A model generated the notes under the pieces. The model worked only from the letters and a program-made list of their open reading frames with translations. It was not told the DNA's origin and did not search any database. A stretch of DNA of 64,000 nt from the human T2T-CHM13v2.0 reference genome, Homo sapiens: assembly GCF_009914755.1 (NCBI RefSeq), contig NC_060925.1, one strand, 5' to 3'. This document shows, piece by piece, positions 31,713 through 37,227 of the stretch. Within the stretch, counting starts at the first letter, position 1, and every line of letters starts with the position of its first letter. The position numbers were made by a program, and so were the translations under genes.

Positions 31713-31921
31713 TTTATGGTCTGAATAACTGTTTGACTGCACAGTTTCTGGACAAATGTACTGGATATGTTATCCCAGGTCGTGATTCAAAGCCCTGACT
31801 CCCAGTAGGCACAGCTTTTCCTGACCTGGCATTCACTTCTCTATAGCTCAACTTTTTAATGTTCTAACTGAGATCATGTACTACAAACAGGAGTATATTT
31901 ACAGATCAAAATGAATAAAAA

Positions 31922-34900
31922 TTTTTTTTTTAGTTTTGTTATTTTTTTAATTATACTTTAAGTTTTAGGGTACATGTGCACAATGTGCAGGTTAGTTACA
32001 TATGTATACATATGACATGCTGGTGCGCTGCACCCACTAACTCCTCATCTAGCATTAGGTGTATCTCCCAGTGCTATCCCTCCCCCCTCCCCCAACCCCA
32101 CAACAGTCCCGAGAGTGTGATGTTCCCCTTCCTGTGTCCATGTGTTCTCATTGTTCAGTTCCCACCTATGAGTGAGAATACCCGGTGTTTGGTTTTTTGT
32201 CCTTGCAATAGTTTACTGAGAATGATGATTTCCAATTTCATCCATGTCTCTACAAAGGACATGAACTCATCCTTTTTCATGGCTGCATAGTATTCCATGG
32301 TGTATATGTGCCACATTTTCTTAATCCAGTCTATCATTGTTGGACATTTGGGTTGGTTCCAAGTCTTTGCTATTGTGAATAGTGCCGCAATAAACATATG
32401 TGTGCATGTTTCTTTATAGCACCATGATTTATAGACCTTTGGGTATATACCCAGTAATGGGATGGCTGGGTCAAATGGTATTTCTAGTTCTAGATCCCTG
32501 AGGAATTGCCACACTAACTTCCACAATGGTTGAACGAGTTTACAGCCCCACCAACAGTGTAAAAGTGTTCCTATTTCTCCACATCCTCTCCAGCACCTGT
32601 TGTTTCCTGACTTTTTAATGATTGCCATTCTAACTGGTGTGAGATGATATCTCATTGTGGTTTTGATTTGCATTTCTCTGATGGCCAGTGATGGTGAGCA
32701 TTTTTTCATGTGTTTTTTGGCTGCATAAATGTCTTCTTTTGAGAAGTGTCTGTTCATGTCCTTCGCCCACTTTTTGATGGGGTTGTTTGTTTTTTCTCGT
32801 AAATTTGTTTGAGTTCATTGTAGATTCTGGATATTAGCCCTTTGTCAGATGAGCAGGTTGCGAAAATTTTCTCCCATTTTGTGGGTTGCCTGTCACTCTG
32901 ATGGTAGTTTCTTTTGCTGTGCAGAAGCTCTTTAGTTTACTTAGATCCCATTTGTCAATTTTGTCTTTTGTTGCCATTGCTTTTGGTGTTTTAGACATGA
33001 AGTCCTTGCCCGTGCCTATGTCCTCAATGGTAACGCCTAGGTTTTCTTCTAGGGTTTTTATGGTTTTAGGTCTAACGTTTAAGTCTTTAATCCATCTTGA
33101 ATTGATTTTTGTATATGGTGTAAGGAAGGGATCCAGCTTCAGCTTTCTACATATGGCTAGCCAGTTTTCCCAGCACCATTTATTAAATAGGGAATCCTCT
33201 TCCCATTGCTTGTTTTTCTCAGGTTGGTCAAAGATCAGATAGTTGTAGATATGGGGCATTATTTCTGAGGGCTCTGTTCTGTTCCATTGACCTATATCTC
33301 TGTTTTGGTACCAGTACCTTGCTGTTTTGGTTACTGTAGCCTTGTAGTATAGTTTGAAGTCAGGTAGCGTGATGCCTCCAGCTTTGTTCTTTTGGTTCAG
33401 GATTGACTTGGTGATGTGGGCTCTTTTTTGGTTCCATATGAACTTTAAAGTCGTTTTTTCCAATTCTGTGAAGAAAGTCATTGGTACCTTGATGGGGATG
33501 GCATTGAATCTATAAATTACCTTGGGCAGTATGGCCATTTTCATGATATTGATTCTTCCTACCCATGAGCATGGAATGTTCTTCCATTTGTTTGTAACCT
33601 CTTTTATTTCATTGAGCAGTGGTTTGCAGTTCTCCTTAAAGAGGTCCTTCACGTCCCTTGTAACTTGGATTCCTAGGTATTTTATTCTCTTTGAAGCAAT
33701 TGTGAATGGGAGTTTACTCATGATTTGGCTCTCTGTCTGTTATTGGTGTATAAGAATGCTTGTGATTTTTGTACATTGATTTTGTATCCTGAGACTTTGC
33801 TGAAGTTGCTTATCAGCTTAAGGAGATTTTGGGCTGAGACAATGGGGTTTTCTAGATATACAATCATGTCATCTGCAAACAGGGACAATTTGACTTCCTC
33901 TTCTCCTAATTGAATACCCTTTATTTCCTTGTCCTGCCTAATTGCCCTGGCCAGAACTTCCAACACTATGTTGAATAGGAGTGGTGAGAGAGGGCATCCC
34001 TGTCTTGTGCCAGTTTTCAAAGGGAATGCTTCCAGTTTTTGCCCATTCAGTATGATATTGGCTGTGGGTTTGTCATAGATAGCTCTTATTATTTTGAGAT
34101 ATGTCCCATCAATACCTAATTTATTGAGAGTTTTTAGCGTGAAGCGTTGTTGAAATTTGTCAAAGGCCTTTTCTGCATCTATTGAGATAATCATGTGGTT
34201 TTTGTCTTTGGCTCTGTTTATATGCTGGATTACATTTATTGATTTGCTTATATTGAACCAGCCTTGCATCCCAGCGATGAAGCCCACTTGATCATGGTGG
34301 ATAAGCTTTTTGATGAGTTGCTGGATTTGGTTTGCCAGTATTTTATTGAGGATTTTTGCATCAATGTTCATCAAGGGTATTGGTCTAAAATTCTCTTTTT
34401 TGGTTGTGTCTCTGCCCGGCTTTGGTATCAGGATGATGCTGGCCTCATAAAATGAGTTAGGGAGGATTCCCTCTTTTTCTGTTGATTGGAATAGTTTCAG
34501 AAGGAATGGTACAAGTTCCTCCTTGTACCTCTGGTAGAATTTGCCTGTGAATCCTTCTGGTCCTGGACTCTTTTTGGTTGGTAAGCTATTGATTATTGCC
34601 ACAATTTCAGCTCCTGTTATTGGTCTATTCAGAGATTCAACTTCTTCCTGGTTTAGTCTTGGGAGGGTGTATGTGTCGAGGAATTTATTCATTTCTTCTA
34701 GATTTTCTAGTTTATTTGCGTAGAGGTGTTTGTAGTATTCTCTGATGGTAGTTTGTATTTCTGTGGGATCGGTGGTGATATCCCCTTTATCATTTTTTAT
34801 TGCGTCTATTTGATTCTTCTCTCTTTTTTTCTTTATTAGTCATGCTAGCGGTCTATCAATTTTGTTGATCCTTTCAAAAAACCAGCTCCTGGATTCATTA

Positions 34901-36142
34901 ATTTTTTGAAGGGTTTTTTGTGTCTCTATTTCCTTCAGTTCTGCTCTGATTTTAGTTATTTCTTGCCTTCTGCTAGCTTTTGAATTTTCAACCCAGAATT
35001 TCATATCTAGCCAAACTAAGCTTCATAAGTGAAGGAGAAATAAAATACTTTACAGACAAGCAAATGCTGACAGATTTTGTCACCACCAGGCCTGCCCTAA
35101 AAGAGCTCCTGAAGGAAGCACTAAACATGGAAAGGAACAACGGGTACCAGCCACCACAAAATCACGCCAAATTGTAAAGACCATCAAGGCTAGGAGGAAA
35201 CTGCATCAACTAACGAGCAAAATAACCAGCTAACATCATAATGACAGGATCAAATTCACACATAACAATATTAACTTTAAATGTAAATGGGCTAAATGCT
35301 CCAATTAAAAGACACAGACTGGCACATTGGATAAAGAGTCAAGACCCATCAGTGTGCTGTGTTCAGGAAACCCGTCTCACGTGCAGAGACACACATAGGC
35401 TCAAAATAAAAGGATGGAGGAAGATCTACCAAGCAAATGGAAAACAAAAAAAGGCAGGGGTTGCAATCCTAGTCTCTGATAAAACAGACTTTAAACCAAC
35501 AAAGATCAAAAGAGACAAAGAAGGTCATCACATAATGGTAAAGGGATCAATTCAACAAGAAGAGCTAACTATCCTAAATATATATGCACCCAATACAGGA
35601 GCATCCAGATTCATAAAGCAAATCCTGAGTGACCTACAAACAGACTTAGACTCCCACACAATAATAATGGAAGACTTCAACACCCACTGTCAACATTAGA
35701 CAGATCAACGAGACAGAAATTTAACAAGGATACCCAGGAATTGAACTCAGCTCTGCACCAAGCGGACCTAATAGACATCTACAGAACTCTCCACCCCAAA
35801 TCAACAGAATATACATTTTTTTCAGCACCACACCACACCTATTCCAAAATTGACCACATAGTTGGAAGTAAAGCTCTCCTCCGCAAATCTAAAAGAACAG
35901 AAATTATAACAAACTGTCTCTCAGACCACGGTGCAATCAAACTAGAACGCAGGATTAAGAAACTCACTCAAAACCGCCCAACTACATGGAAACGGAACAA
36001 CCTGCTCCTGAATGACTACTGGGTACATAACGAAATGAAGGCAGAAATAAAGATGTTCTTTGAAACCAACAAGAACAATGACACAATATACCAGGATCTC
36101 TGGGACACATTCAAAGCAGTATGTAGAGGGAAATTAATAGCA
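31922..36142 (-). mobile_element. Young L1PA2/3-like element with 5' inversion, no TSD
   Basis: Antisense part 31922-34985 (ORF2 RT and C-terminal fragments in the ORF track, frameshifted); inverted arm 34982-36142 (ORF1 end plus EN domain MTGSNSHITIL); 4-bp gaat microhomology; 3' UTR gctagatgaggagttagtgggtgcagcgcaccagc. Confidence 0.9.
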
Positions 36143-36144
36143 TG

Positions 36145-36203
36145 TGCACATTGTGCACATGTACCCTAAAACTTAAAGTATAATAATAATAAAATTAAAA
36201 AAA
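36145..36203 (+). mobile_element. Second L1PA 3' terminus with poly(A)
   Basis: tgcacattgtgcacatgtaccctaaaacttaaagtataat plus A-rich tail; inverted copy of 31950-31989. Confidence 0.9.
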
Positions 36204-37227
36204 TAGAAAAACGATGTCTAATATGTGATCGAGTTTTTCCAAAAAGAATATGTCTCCAAAGCAAACAGATAGTTCCTATAACATCAGAAGTCTTTTACAG
36301 ATAAATTGATAGAGAAATTCAGCTTCAGTCAGCATGTGACCAGCACAATACTAGAAATGGAGATTAAATTTGTGTCTTCGATCACATGATAGTAGGCAAA
36401 TCATTTTTGTCAATCATCATGAAGAGAGAAACAGGTCTCAACCTCCTCCCTTTCTGGTTTTAAAACAAATCAAGAACTTGGATAAACCTGATTATTGGTA
36501 TCTGAGATCTAGGTTCAGTCAACGTCTTGAGAATGAGAAATGGGCATTTCTGGGATCTTTAGTGTTGTGGGTTTCCCACCTCAGGGTGCCATTGTGTTAA
36601 CCTCAAGAAGAGGTGGGCTTTTAAGGAAAATTGGGAAAATACATTGTATTGCCTCAATAATTTCCAGTGCTTATGAGCGGAATTCACTTCAAGAAAATAA
36701 CTCATCTCAACTTACTTTATGGAACCACCTATTTTGACCATCATACCATAGCTGTCCCAGTTATCTGGATCTTGTCAACTGTTGTAATACACAATTTATC
36801 CAAATAAAACGGTATTACCTCAGATTTCCACCATAATTTGTCTTTAAGTGAGTCTTGCTATGAGCTTCCTTGCAAGAAGGAAGCTATGTGGTCAAGTTCG
36901 CTTCTCCCTATGCTTCTTTTTCAGTTGGCAAAGTGTTCTTTACATTTGGGAAACACTACTTCCAAGTCACTAAGTTGAGATAAAATGGTGATTAATTCTA
37001 CTTGATCACTTAGACATTTCTACCATATGTTTTACATTCCATTGAATGATGCAGCATTAAAACAAAATTGATTACAAATGTAAATCTACATATCCCTCTG
37101 AATTGTCTCCGTCACATTAGTTTAGGCTGAATTTATATAAATGCACTCTTATTTGTGTTGTATTTTTTCACCTCCCTTCATTGCCTCAAAATTCCCTTCA
37201 TACCCACATGCTAAAATTGACTTCATT
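36204..37227. repeat. Paralog of the OR2M7 upstream (intron/5') region
   Basis: 36204-36398 matches about 61361-61557, and 36397-37227 matches 63168-64000, roughly 90% identical by eye; homology probably continues past the window end. Confidence 0.92.

What the first reader, a model, noticed from the sequence alone, without database searches (positions are those of the whole stretch)
31900..37227. OR2T12 appears to be a chimera: OR2T coding exon joined to an OR2M-type upstream region
Seen: identity with OR2T33 ends abruptly at agatcaaaatgaataaaaat (31921, equivalent to about 10180), about 260 bp upstream of the ATG. After the L1 insert the sequence does not resume OR2T33-like DNA. It instead matches the OR2M7 upstream region from about 61361 (about 250 bp above the OR2M7 ATG) to the window end, in the same orientation. 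The OR2T33 candidate exon and promoter (13865-14300) have no visible counterpart. Established: OR promoters and non-coding exons lie kilobases upstream and influence choice frequency and zone. Inference: a deletion or rearrangement removed the OR2T promoter and an OR2M coding exon, so an OR2T receptor is now driven by an OR2M promoter, a natural promoter swap. It may be as recent as L1PA2/3 activity. Both parental breakpoints contain aaaaatat, so a microhomology fusion before the L1 arrived is an alternative.
Basis: partly seen in the sequence, partly recalled or inferred. Interest (0 to 1): 0.82.

Follow-up and report, generated by a model that had tools for sequence, protein, structure and literature searches.

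The report
OR2T12 runs on a borrowed OR2M promoter
The human smell-receptor gene OR2T12 has the coding exon of one receptor subfamily joined to the upstream exons and promoter region of another, with a single inverted L1 element sitting exactly at the seam, which makes it a natural promoter swap.

Summary
OR2T12 matches OR2T33 (95.5%) from its 3' UTR to about 265 bp above the ATG, and the match stops at 31921-31931. A 4.3-kb L1 follows (31922 to about 36193-36212). Beyond it the DNA is OR2M-type for at least 9.6 kb.

Genome-wide, that DNA matches only the upstream regions of OR2M7, OR2M5, OR2M3 and OR2M2. The OR2T-type upstream region, shared by OR2T33 and OR2T32P, has no counterpart here.

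New here:
- RefSeq exon 1 of OR2T12 is paralogous to the annotated exon 1 of OR2M2 and OR2M3 and uses OR2M2's splice donor.
- Exon 2 shares its splice sites with OR2M7.
- The L1 is one twin-primed unit with outward-facing 3' ends and A/T tails at both ends, and no target-site duplication above chance. It therefore probably made the junction by an L1-mediated deletion rather than arriving later. This is inferred, because no outgroup genome was available.
- OR2T12 also lacks 1.6 kb that all four OR2M genes keep.
- Its OR2M-type region is a mosaic, OR2M7-like near the gene and OR2M5-like at the promoter.

This is a new instance of known mechanisms.

The parts
30700..31656 (-). OR2T12 coding sequence, intact, 318 codons plus stop; OR2T-type
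   Evidence: The translation has no internal stop. It is 97.1% identical to the OR2T33 CDS, K2P 0.030, and 30458-31729 is 96.5% identical to OR2T32P.
31657..31931 (-). OR2T-type proximal remnant: the last 13 nt of 5' UTR in the coding exon (to 31669), the AG acceptor (31670-31671 on the + strand reads CT), and about 250-260 bp of OR2T-type intron. The breakpoint lies within 31921-31931.
   Evidence: 95.0% identical to OR2T33 9920-10180. Sequence read. OR2T33's coding exon ends at the homologous acceptor (9933/9934-9935).
31922..34981 (-). L1 part a: the 3' half of an L1 in minus orientation. The poly-T and complement of an A-rich tail lie at the left (31922-31949), followed by the 3' UTR and ORF2 including the reverse transcriptase.
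   Evidence: RVT_1 on the minus strand at 33721-34692. Collinear with two other L1 copies in the window (32603-34980 = 48119-50493; 32115-34980 = 16869-19730). Sequence of the tail.
34982..36142 (+). L1 part b: the next more 5' 1.16 kb of the same L1 (end of ORF1, endonuclease part of ORF2), inverted relative to part a. No L1 5' UTR is present.
   Evidence: Exo_endo_phos on the plus strand at 35241-35696. 34982-36142 = 51731-50586 reversed, and 35217-36109 = 20739-19856 reversed. Both rulers put its flank-side end about 92 nt 5' of the end of part a.
36143..36212 (+). A second copy of the last 40 nt of the L1 3' end (36145-36184) plus an A-rich tail, facing outward. The OR2M-type breakpoint lies somewhere in the A-rich stretch 36194-36213.
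   Evidence: 40 of 40 nt are identical to the reverse complement of 31950-31989. Inverted repeat I1 is 67 nt and 85% complementary.
36210..36398 (-). OR2M-type 'island', equivalent to OR2M7 61369-61557 (about 260-450 bp above an OR2M ATG)
   Evidence: 86.5% to OR2M7 and 87-90% to OR2M5, OR2M3 and OR2M2. The 1.6-kb deletion junction at 36397/36398 has a 2-nt CA overlap.
36399..45860 (-). OR2M-type upstream region that now serves as OR2T12's introns, 5' exons and promoter. It is a mosaic: 36705-38204 is closest to OR2M7, and 38205-42204 is closest to OR2M5.
   Evidence: 500-nt windows are 93.2-94.4% to OR2M7 over 36705-38204, and 88.7-96.6% to OR2M5 over 38205-42204. Homology to the OR2M7 upstream continues to 45860.
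37456..37636 (-). OR2T12 RefSeq exon 2 (non-coding), in OR2M7-like DNA
   Evidence: The AG acceptor and GT donor are both present and conserved in OR2M7 (chr1:247754229-247754409). The donor GT is absent in OR2M3 and OR2M2, and OR2M5 has a 51-nt gap in the exon.
39429..39507 (-). OR2T12 RefSeq exon 1 and annotated transcription start, in OR2M5/OR2M3-like DNA
   Evidence: Aligns with the annotated exon 1 of OR2M2 (same donor...CTAAGAG|GTAAGT) and of OR2M3.
39508..39750 (-). Presumed promoter. This block is conserved among OR2T12, OR2M7, OR2M5, OR2M3 and OR2M2 and includes 39611-39645 with a TAATTA core.
   Evidence: Alignment. One match in the window, none in 100 shuffles. TAATTA sites are listed. 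There is no match to the O/E consensus TCCCYNGRGAR at up to 1 mismatch in any of the five.
9934..15931 (-). Reference for what OR2T12 lost: the OR2T-type intron, exon 1 (13871-14082) and upstream of OR2T33
   Evidence: Shared with the OR2T32P upstream: 86%, 88.4% for 14000-15931, and 90.4% identity (K2P 0.104) for 11401-15931. Absent to the right of 31930.
61109..64000 (-). Reference for the OR2M parent: the OR2M7 upstream region. 61109-61368 and 61558-63167 have no counterpart at OR2T12.

Best explanation
OR2T12 is a fixed natural promoter swap.

Shown: its coding exon, its splice acceptor and 11 kb of 3' flank are OR2T-type and paralogous to OR2T33. Everything from about 36.2 kb upward is OR2M-type DNA, including both annotated non-coding exons and the annotated start site.

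Annotated, but no reads seen by me: transcription starts at the OR2M-type exon 1, splices to an OR2M7-type exon 2, and then splices across a 5.8-kb intron that holds the L1 to the OR2T-type acceptor at 31669.

Inferred: whichever factors and local enhancers choose OR2M2, OR2M3, OR2M5 and OR2M7 now also choose this OR2T receptor.

Origin, inferred. The locus once read OR2T33, then OR2T12 with its own OR2T-type upstream, then a fifth OR2M gene of this group, then OR2M7. One L1 integration then occurred, much younger than the OR2T12/OR2T33 duplication. It primed reverse transcription from a T-run on the top strand at the OR2T site. A second priming occurred from the far OR2M site on the other strand. 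That second cDNA copied 40 nt of the L1 3' end and then switched to an internal position on the same RNA. The two cDNAs were joined head to head, and the DNA between the two sites was lost. The lost DNA included the OR2T promoter and the OR2M coding exon.

A separate 1.6-kb deletion with a 2-nt overlap, a 92-bp deletion, and conversion among OR2M paralogues then shaped the borrowed region.
For: Chimera.
- The OR2M-type DNA matches only four other places in the genome, all OR2M upstream regions, with every candidate scored.
- The OR2T-type upstream is shared by OR2T33 and OR2T32P, so it is the ancestral state for this OR2T group.
- There is no remnant of it, of an OR2M CDS, or of the 1.6 kb near OR2T12.

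Promoter use.
- Exon 1 is paralogous to the annotated exon 1 of OR2M2 and OR2M3 and has the same donor as OR2M2.
- The exon 2 splice sites are shared with OR2M7.
- The L1 copy lacks its 5' UTR, so it offers no L1 promoter.

One L1, one event.
- The RT domain is on the minus strand and the EN domain on the plus strand.
- The two parts are adjacent in L1 coordinates, with a gap of about 92 nt by two independent rulers. This is the twin-priming signature as described in PMC2837659 (sections 10 and 11 read) and in 10.1101/2024.08.27.596794 (passages).
- The two outward ends carry the same 40 nt of L1 3' end, 40 of 40 identical.

The L1 as maker of the junction.
- Both homology breaks coincide with the two L1 ends to within the A/T-rich tails.
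- No direct repeat flanks the L1 beyond chance. The best exact match is 7 nt, reached by 222 of 300 shuffles. The best with 2 mismatches is 13 nt, reached by 90 of 300.
- The OR2T parental site, read from OR2T33, is TATTTTTT/CAAC, a T-run followed by a break as in L1 endonuclease sites.
- Absence of a target-site duplication, with L1 plus poly(A) at the junction, is the stated pattern of L1-mediated deletions (PMC7058536, passages).

Timing.
- K2P between the OR2T12 and OR2T33 3' flanks is 0.09-0.11.
- The L1 is 94-97% identical to its closest scored copies.
Against: - No empty or ancestral allele was seen, so the deletion, its size and the lost OR2M gene are inferred from paralogues only.
- The junction sequences are A/T-rich. 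The OR2M-side breakpoint can be placed only within 36194-36213, and a degenerate short duplication cannot be excluded.
- On one reading the OR2M-side primer site is not a good endonuclease site.
- The second L1 3' end at the OR2M side needs an extra template switch, or a second RNA.
- Transcript support is the RefSeq model alone. The curators of OR models warn that spliced reads can be misaligned between close paralogues (PMC7055050, passages).
- The conserved promoter block has no match to the O/E consensus at up to 1 mismatch, and OR2T12 carries a C-to-G change inside the block. Promoter strength at this copy is therefore unknown.
- The L1 age is a rough figure, because only 40 of 15881 candidates were scored.
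Confidence: 0.7

Rival explanations
1. The OR2T/OR2M junction already existed, made by an ordinary microhomology or end-joining deletion or as the edge of a duplication. The L1 later happened to insert at the seam.
For: Both parental sites are A/T-rich and share short A-rich words. The left flank AAAATGAATAAAA and 36191-36203 match at 11 of 13 positions, which could be a decayed duplication. A/T-rich seams are good L1 targets.
Against: The 13-nt match with 2 mismatches is reached by 90 of 300 shuffles. It ends in A rather than in the T-run expected next to a poly-T end. The 'aaaaatat' shared word is an OR2M7-specific state. An independent L1 landing within a few bases of a given point is a priori rare. 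A canonical twin-primed insertion would not carry a second L1 3' end and tail at its inverted side.
Confidence: 0.2
2. An OR2T cassette was copied into an existing OR2M gene and replaced its coding exon, by duplicative transposition or long-tract conversion. OR2T12 therefore never had an OR2T promoter.
For: The CDS and the proximal 265 bp are much closer to OR2T33 and OR2T32P (K2P 0.03-0.05) than the 3' flank is (0.09-0.11). This shows that conversion acts on this gene.
Against: OR2T-type homology runs about 11 kb 3' of the CDS (20902-31929 = 4029-10187, interrupted only by repeats), in tandem with OR2T33. No OR2M-type 3' flank reappears to the left of it. Only about 200-300 bp of 3' flank was held for three of the OR2M genes, so this last test is weak.
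Confidence: 0.07
3. The DNA chimera is real, but the annotated 5' exons are an annotation artefact caused by reads from OR2M paralogues. OR2T12 would then be silent or start elsewhere.
For: Exon 1 is 91-92% identical to the OR2M5 and OR2M3 copies, and exon 2 lies in a 500-nt window that is 94.4% identical to OR2M7. The curators describe paralogue misalignment of spliced reads as a known problem (PMC7055050, passages). I saw no reads.
Against: A junction from exon 2 to the OR2T-type acceptor can be produced only by this locus. All splice sites of the model are canonical and in place. The OR2T promoter is gone, and the L1 has no 5' UTR.
Confidence: 0.12

Closest known systems
L1-mediated (L1 insertion-associated) genomic deletion
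   Same: L1 sequence with a poly(A)/poly(T) tract lies exactly between two stretches that are not neighbours in the paralogous loci. There is no target-site duplication. A T-run sits at the parental site of the poly-T end (definition from PMC7058536 passages).
   Different: Both ends carry an L1 3' end and tail, and the element is inverted internally. The described model has one poly(A) end and one 5'-truncated end. The deleted DNA has not been seen. The event is germline, fixed and old, whereas the PMC7058536 set is somatic.
Twin priming and its poly(A)-at-both-ends or 'dual priming' and 'switching' variants
   Same: There are two inverted fragments of one L1, adjacent in L1 coordinates, with a small internal deletion of about 92 nt. 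[quoted passage not shown] The cancer long-read preprint reports the same average ratio. Poly(T) at one end and poly(A) at the other is the situation discussed in PMC2837659.
   Different: Those insertions are bounded by target-site duplications, and none is seen here. The inverted arm here begins with 40 nt of real L1 3' end before it jumps inward. The 39 loci of PMC2837659 did not show this, according to section 10.
OR genes that share or borrow 5' non-coding exons
   Same: An OR coding exon is expressed from non-coding exons that belong by descent to another OR gene. PMC7055050 reports 7 human loci with shared 5' UTR exons (passages).
   Different: In those cases a downstream gene splices from the exons of an upstream neighbour that still exists. 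Here the donor gene's coding exon is gone, and OR2T12 alone owns the borrowed exons and promoter. OR2T12 and OR2M genes are not mentioned in that paper's main text, and its supplements were closed.

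Membership tests
L1-mediated deletion | L1 sequence with its poly(A) tract at the junction | tested here: met
   Poly-T plus the L1 3' end at 31922-31989, and the L1 3' end plus an A-rich tail at 36145-36212. 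RT and EN domains are present.
L1-mediated deletion | No target-site duplication | tested here: met
   The best direct repeat between the flanks is 7 nt exact (222 of 300 shuffles reach it), 9 nt with 1 mismatch (264 of 300) and 13 nt with 2 mismatches (90 of 300). The repeat finder showed no flanking direct repeat among the 20 families displayed, out of at least 60.
L1-mediated deletion | Endonuclease-type target (5'-TTTT/A and related) at the poly(A) end | tested here: inconclusive
   The parental site is known only from the paralogue OR2T33: TATTTTTT/CAAC. This is a T-run followed by C rather than A. The OR2M-side site depends on where in 36194-36213 the break is placed.
L1-mediated deletion | A pre-integration allele that contains the deleted DNA | not testable with these tools
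Twin-primed L1 insertion | [quoted passage not shown] | tested here: met
   32603-34980 = 48119-50493 and 34982-36142 = 51731-50586 reversed. The gap is 92 nt, and a second ruler (16869-20739) gives the same gap. The domain order is EN on the plus strand and RT on the minus strand.
Twin-primed L1 insertion | Bounded by target-site duplications | tested here: not met
   This is why I treat it as a twin-priming-like event that bridged two distant sites, not as a canonical twin-primed insertion.
OR2M-type 5' exon and promoter (OR2M2/3/5/7 group) | Sequence homology to the annotated exon 1 and its upstream block in OR2M2 and OR2M3 | tested here: met
   Five-way alignment: the 79 nt of exon 1 map onto OR2M2 247600987-247601065 and OR2M3 247623428-247623506, which contain their annotated exon 1. 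Identity of the 500-nt region is 84-91%.
OR2M-type 5' exon and promoter (OR2M2/3/5/7 group) | Use of the same splice donor | tested here: met
   The OR2T12 and OR2M2 exon 1 both end ...CTAAGAG|GTAAGT. OR2M3 uses a GT 14 nt upstream that was created by a substitution.
OR2M-type 5' exon and promoter (OR2M2/3/5/7 group) | Transcripts that really start there in olfactory neurons | not tested
   Only the RefSeq model NM_001412178.1 was available. No reads were available, and OR2T12 is absent from the main text of the OR transcriptome and curation papers found.
Typical OR promoter (O/E plus homeodomain sites) | An O/E site (V$NOLF consensus core TCCCyngrgar, from PMC3247239 Table 1) near the start site | tested here: not met
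   0 matches at up to 1 mismatch in about 380 nt around the start in each of the 5 sequences.
Typical OR promoter (O/E plus homeodomain sites) | A homeodomain-type TAATTA core near the start site | tested here: met
   Two TAATTA sites in OR2T12 and OR2M2, and one each in OR2M7, OR2M5 and OR2M3. A 6-mer in AT-rich DNA is weak evidence.

The most novel reading that the evidence does not exclude
A single aberrant L1 integration in a catarrhine or ape ancestor was primed from poly(A) at two nicks many kilobases apart. It deleted OR2T12's own promoter together with a whole OR2M gene. In one step it put an OR2T receptor under an OR2M promoter, and that allele was then fixed. It would be a natural, evolutionarily tested promoter-swap experiment for olfactory receptor choice, and a germline example of the L1-bridged rearrangements so far documented mainly in tumours.
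Probability: 0.45. Interest if true: 0.65.

Novelty: new member of a known kind. Interest (0 to 1): 0.5.

Why it matters
Which receptor an olfactory neuron chooses, how often and in which zone is thought to depend on the promoter and nearby enhancers rather than on the coding sequence. That statement is from my general knowledge of the field, not from a call. OR2T12 offers a natural test. It is an OR2T coding exon behind a promoter whose paralogues drive OR2M2, OR2M3, OR2M5 and OR2M7, and it sits next to OR2T33, which keeps the OR2T-type promoter. Comparing expression frequency and zone of OR2T12, OR2T33 and the OR2M genes would separate promoter effects from coding-sequence effects without any engineering.

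It also adds a fixed germline case to the list of L1-associated deletions that reshape genes.

OR2T12 and OR2M7 lie in the same linkage block that a published genome-wide study associated with asparagus anosmia, with the lead variant about 9 kb upstream of OR2M7 (PMC2891811, passages). Related promoters for two receptors in that block are worth knowing when regulatory variants there are interpreted. I make no claim about that trait.

Tried and rejected
- Recombination between two separate L1 elements as the cause. Rejected: the two L1 parts are inverted relative to each other and adjacent in L1 coordinates, so they come from one RNA, and recombination between inverted copies gives inversions, not deletions.
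- An L1 promoter driving OR2T12. Rejected: the copy starts near the end of ORF1 and has no 5' UTR, and the annotated start is 3.3 kb beyond it.
- The shared DNA being an interspersed repeat. Rejected. Only 38705-39050 inside it is an old interspersed repeat, with hits on many chromosomes.
- OR2M4 as a relative of the borrowed promoter. Its 10 kb of upstream sequence (L062) matched only through repeats. Neither OR2M4 nor OR2M1P appeared.
- An O/E site in the conserved block, which I had expected from memory. Not found at up to 1 mismatch.
- Using OR2T32P to read the ancestral OR2T breakpoint. Not possible, because OR2T32P is itself rearranged from 68 nt above the ATG.
- Exact placement of the OR2M-side breakpoint, and a decision between 'tail copied from the L1 RNA' and 'OR2M-type DNA' for 36191-36212. 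By my own count on the sequences, this stretch matches the other tail at 19 of 22 positions and the OR2M paralogues at 15 of 22. I leave it open.
- L1 subfamily assignment. Not attempted beyond pairwise identities, because no repeat library was available and I built no consensus.
- Dating in years. I give only ratios of distances, since any rate would be recalled.
- Literature. No paper among those holding 'OR2T12' (20 papers, 18 listed), 'OR2M7' or 'OR2T33' (65 papers, 25 listed), or the term set (126 papers, 12 listed) describes this chimera by its title or abstract start. Supplements, where per-gene OR models and expression values would be, were closed and were not asked for.

Full report
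WHAT WAS CHECKED

OR2T12 and OR2T33 are paralogous over a long tandem block, 20902-31929 against 4029-10187, interrupted only by repeats. BLAST identity is 87.8-90.4% in the 3' flank and 95.5% over 30458-31929. The K2P distances are 0.09-0.11 in the 3' flank, 0.030 in the CDS and 0.053 in the last 265 bp.

The match stops at 31921-31931. Both genes read ...GAATAAAAA. OR2T33 then continues TATTTTTTCAAC..., while OR2T12 continues with ten T followed by the complement of an A-rich tail and of an L1 3' end. The OR2T12 CDS is intact. Its coding exon uses the same acceptor as OR2T33 (with the annotation given).

WHAT LIES BEYOND THE L1

36210-36398 matches OR2M7 61369-61557, and 36397 onward matches 63168 onward. 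With sequence from beyond the window (L003, L006, L061), the match to the OR2M7 upstream region continues to 45860 = 70655 in window-equivalent numbering.

The same DNA matches the upstream regions of OR2M5, OR2M3 and OR2M2. Two narrower genome-wide searches avoided the one old interspersed repeat at 38705-39050, and every candidate was scored in each (9 of 9 and 7 of 7). They found nothing else except two 56-nt rows on chr15 at E 1e-4. OR2M4 and OR2M1P did not appear, and no OR2T gene did.

Conversely, the OR2T33 upstream region 9926-14400 finds only the upstream of the pseudogene OR2T32P, apart from 262 bp at OR2T12 and a repeat (only 40 of 3897 candidates were scored, so this is a lower bound). 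The match to OR2T32P continues to at least 15931. OR2T-type upstream DNA is therefore the older state for this OR2T group.

A word-size-7 search found none of that DNA to the right of 31930. It also found no OR2M CDS remnant: the only 4 hits are CDS-to-CDS similarity with OR2T33 and OR2T12 at 64-70%. The 1.6 kb gave 0 hits.

THE TRANSCRIPT

RefSeq (annotation given with the finding) places OR2T12 exon 1 at 39429-39507 and exon 2 at 37456-37636, both in the OR2M-type DNA.

In a five-way alignment, exon 1 falls on OR2M2 chr1:247600987-247601065 and OR2M3 247623428-247623506. These contain the annotated exon 1 of those genes. OR2T12 and OR2M2 end the exon at the identical donor, while OR2M3 uses a GT 14 nt upstream.

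Exon 2 has its AG and GT conserved in OR2M7. The donor GT is absent in OR2M2 and OR2M3, and OR2M5 has a 51-nt gap in the exon.

About 100-140 nt upstream of the start lies a block conserved in all five sequences (39611-39645 in OR2T12). It contains a TAATTA core. I expected an O/E site there from memory, but none matches the published consensus core at up to 1 mismatch in any of the five (consensus from Table 1 of PMC3247239, passages).

The statement 'OR2T12 is transcribed from an OR2M-type promoter' thus rests on homology, which I tested, plus the RefSeq model, which I could not test.

THE L1

Pfam finds the reverse transcriptase on the minus strand (33721-34692) and the endonuclease on the plus strand (35241-35696). 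3 of the 5 pieces gave nothing.

Measured against two other L1 copies in the window, 31925-34981 is the 3' half in minus orientation, and 34982-36142 is the next 1.16 kb towards the 5' end, in plus orientation. About 92 nt are missing between them, and both rulers agree on that figure.

This is the architecture of twin priming: two inverted fragments of one L1 with a small internal deletion (PMC2837659, abstract and sections 10-11; 10.1101/2024.08.27.596794, passages).

Two things are not canonical.
- The inverted arm is capped by a second copy of the last 40 nt of the L1 (36145-36184, 40 of 40 identical to the other end) and an A-rich tail. Both ends of the insert therefore look like 3' ends.
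- There is no target-site duplication above chance.

Variants in which poly(A) primes on both strands, or in which a growing cDNA switches position on the RNA, are discussed in those two papers. L1 plus poly(A) at a junction without a duplication is the stated pattern of L1-mediated deletions, which range from about 0.5 kb to megabases in tumours (PMC7058536, passages).

Both homology breaks coincide with the two ends of one L1 unit. I therefore think this integration made the junction.

The alternative is an older junction hit later by the L1. It needs a coincidence and a decayed duplication that is no better than chance. I give it about 0.2.

WHAT REMAINS UNCERTAIN AT THE SEAM

The OR2M-side break lies in an A-rich stretch (36194-36213). 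Part of it aligns with OR2M2, OR2M3 and OR2M5, including a 'tag' that OR2M7 has lost. But it aligns at least as well with the other L1 tail (my count).

OTHER CHANGES IN THE BORROWED REGION

- OR2T12 lacks 1,610 bp (61558-63167) that OR2M7, OR2M2, OR2M5 and OR2M3 all carry collinearly. The junction has a 2-nt CA overlap.
- It also lacks 92 bp just upstream of exon 2.
- In 500-nt windows the region is closest to OR2M7 from 36705 to 38204 (93.2-94.4%). From 38205 to 42204, which includes exon 1 and the promoter, it is closest to OR2M5 (88.7-96.6%), while OR2M7 drops to 86%. The borrowed region is therefore itself a mosaic, most simply through conversion between neighbouring paralogues.

AGE

The L1 is 94-97% identical to the 39 other copies scored, out of 15881 candidates. 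The OR2T12/OR2T33 3' flanks differ by K2P 0.09-0.11. If the L1 made the junction, OR2T12 had its own promoter for most of its history. I cannot confirm or reject L1PA2/3, and I give no date in years because any rate would be recalled.

KNOWN OR NEW

L1-mediated deletion, twin priming and OR genes using foreign 5' exons (PMC7055050, passages) are all known. None of the papers found with the gene names or with the mechanism terms describes this locus (titles and abstract starts only, apart from the papers I opened). Supplements were closed. I file it as a new member of known kinds, of moderate interest mainly as a ready-made promoter-swap comparison for OR choice.

Noticed in passing
window 42500-43453: A 17-nt G+C-rich minisatellite (consensus CTGGAGCCCCCTGAGGA, 55.5 copies, 90% matches) lies 3 kb upstream of OR2T12 exon 1. 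Between the blocks that match OR2M7, OR2T12 has about 3.2 kb (41050-44309) where OR2M7 has about 0.4 kb.
   Followed up: partly
window 31654-31661 against 9917-9925: OR2T12 has a 1-nt deletion relative to OR2T33 just after OR2T33's start codon. The homologous ATG (31661-31659, minus strand) is followed by GGA TGA, and the annotated protein starts 5 nt downstream (MRNTT... against MEMRNTT...). This leaves a two-codon upstream ORF overlapping the real start.
   Followed up: partly
window 39611-39645 (minus strand): Inside the promoter block conserved in all four OR2M paralogues (GGATTCCCCAAGGG), OR2T12 alone reads GGATTCCGCAAGGG, a C-to-G change that creates a CpG.
   Followed up: no
chr1:247754229-247754409 and 247756291-247756369 (just beyond the window end): OR2M7 is annotated as a single coding exon, but it has intact counterparts of OR2T12 exon 2 (same AG and GT) and exon 1 (same GT donor). 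It probably has unannotated 5' exons.
   Followed up: partly
window 5285-6568: The L1 fragment in the OR2T33 3' UTR is also inverted internally, at 6033/6034, relative to the OR2T12 L1 (31949-32449 = 6532-6034 reversed; 32429-33177 = 5288-6033 forward).
   Followed up: no
L007/L021, chr1:247627628-247628005: The OR2M3 upstream region carries a 377-bp insert that the other OR2M genes lack. It is 91% identical to the 3' end of the OR2T12 L1.
   Followed up: no
L032/L036, chr1:247510645-247511050: The OR2T32P upstream is rearranged relative to OR2T33. Homology holds for 68 nt above the ATG, then about 1.2 kb is missing, with a 135-nt piece present in inverted orientation.
   Followed up: no
window 38705-39050: An old interspersed repeat of about 300 nt (73-80% to copies on many chromosomes) sits inside the OR2M-type upstream region and is shared by the OR2M paralogues.
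   Followed up: no
window 30458-31929: There is a step in divergence between OR2T12 and OR2T33: K2P 0.03-0.05 over the CDS and the 265 bp above it, against 0.09-0.11 in the 3' flank. OR2T32P, 200 kb away, is 96.5% identical over the same stretch. This suggests conversion among the three OR2T copies.
   Followed up: partly
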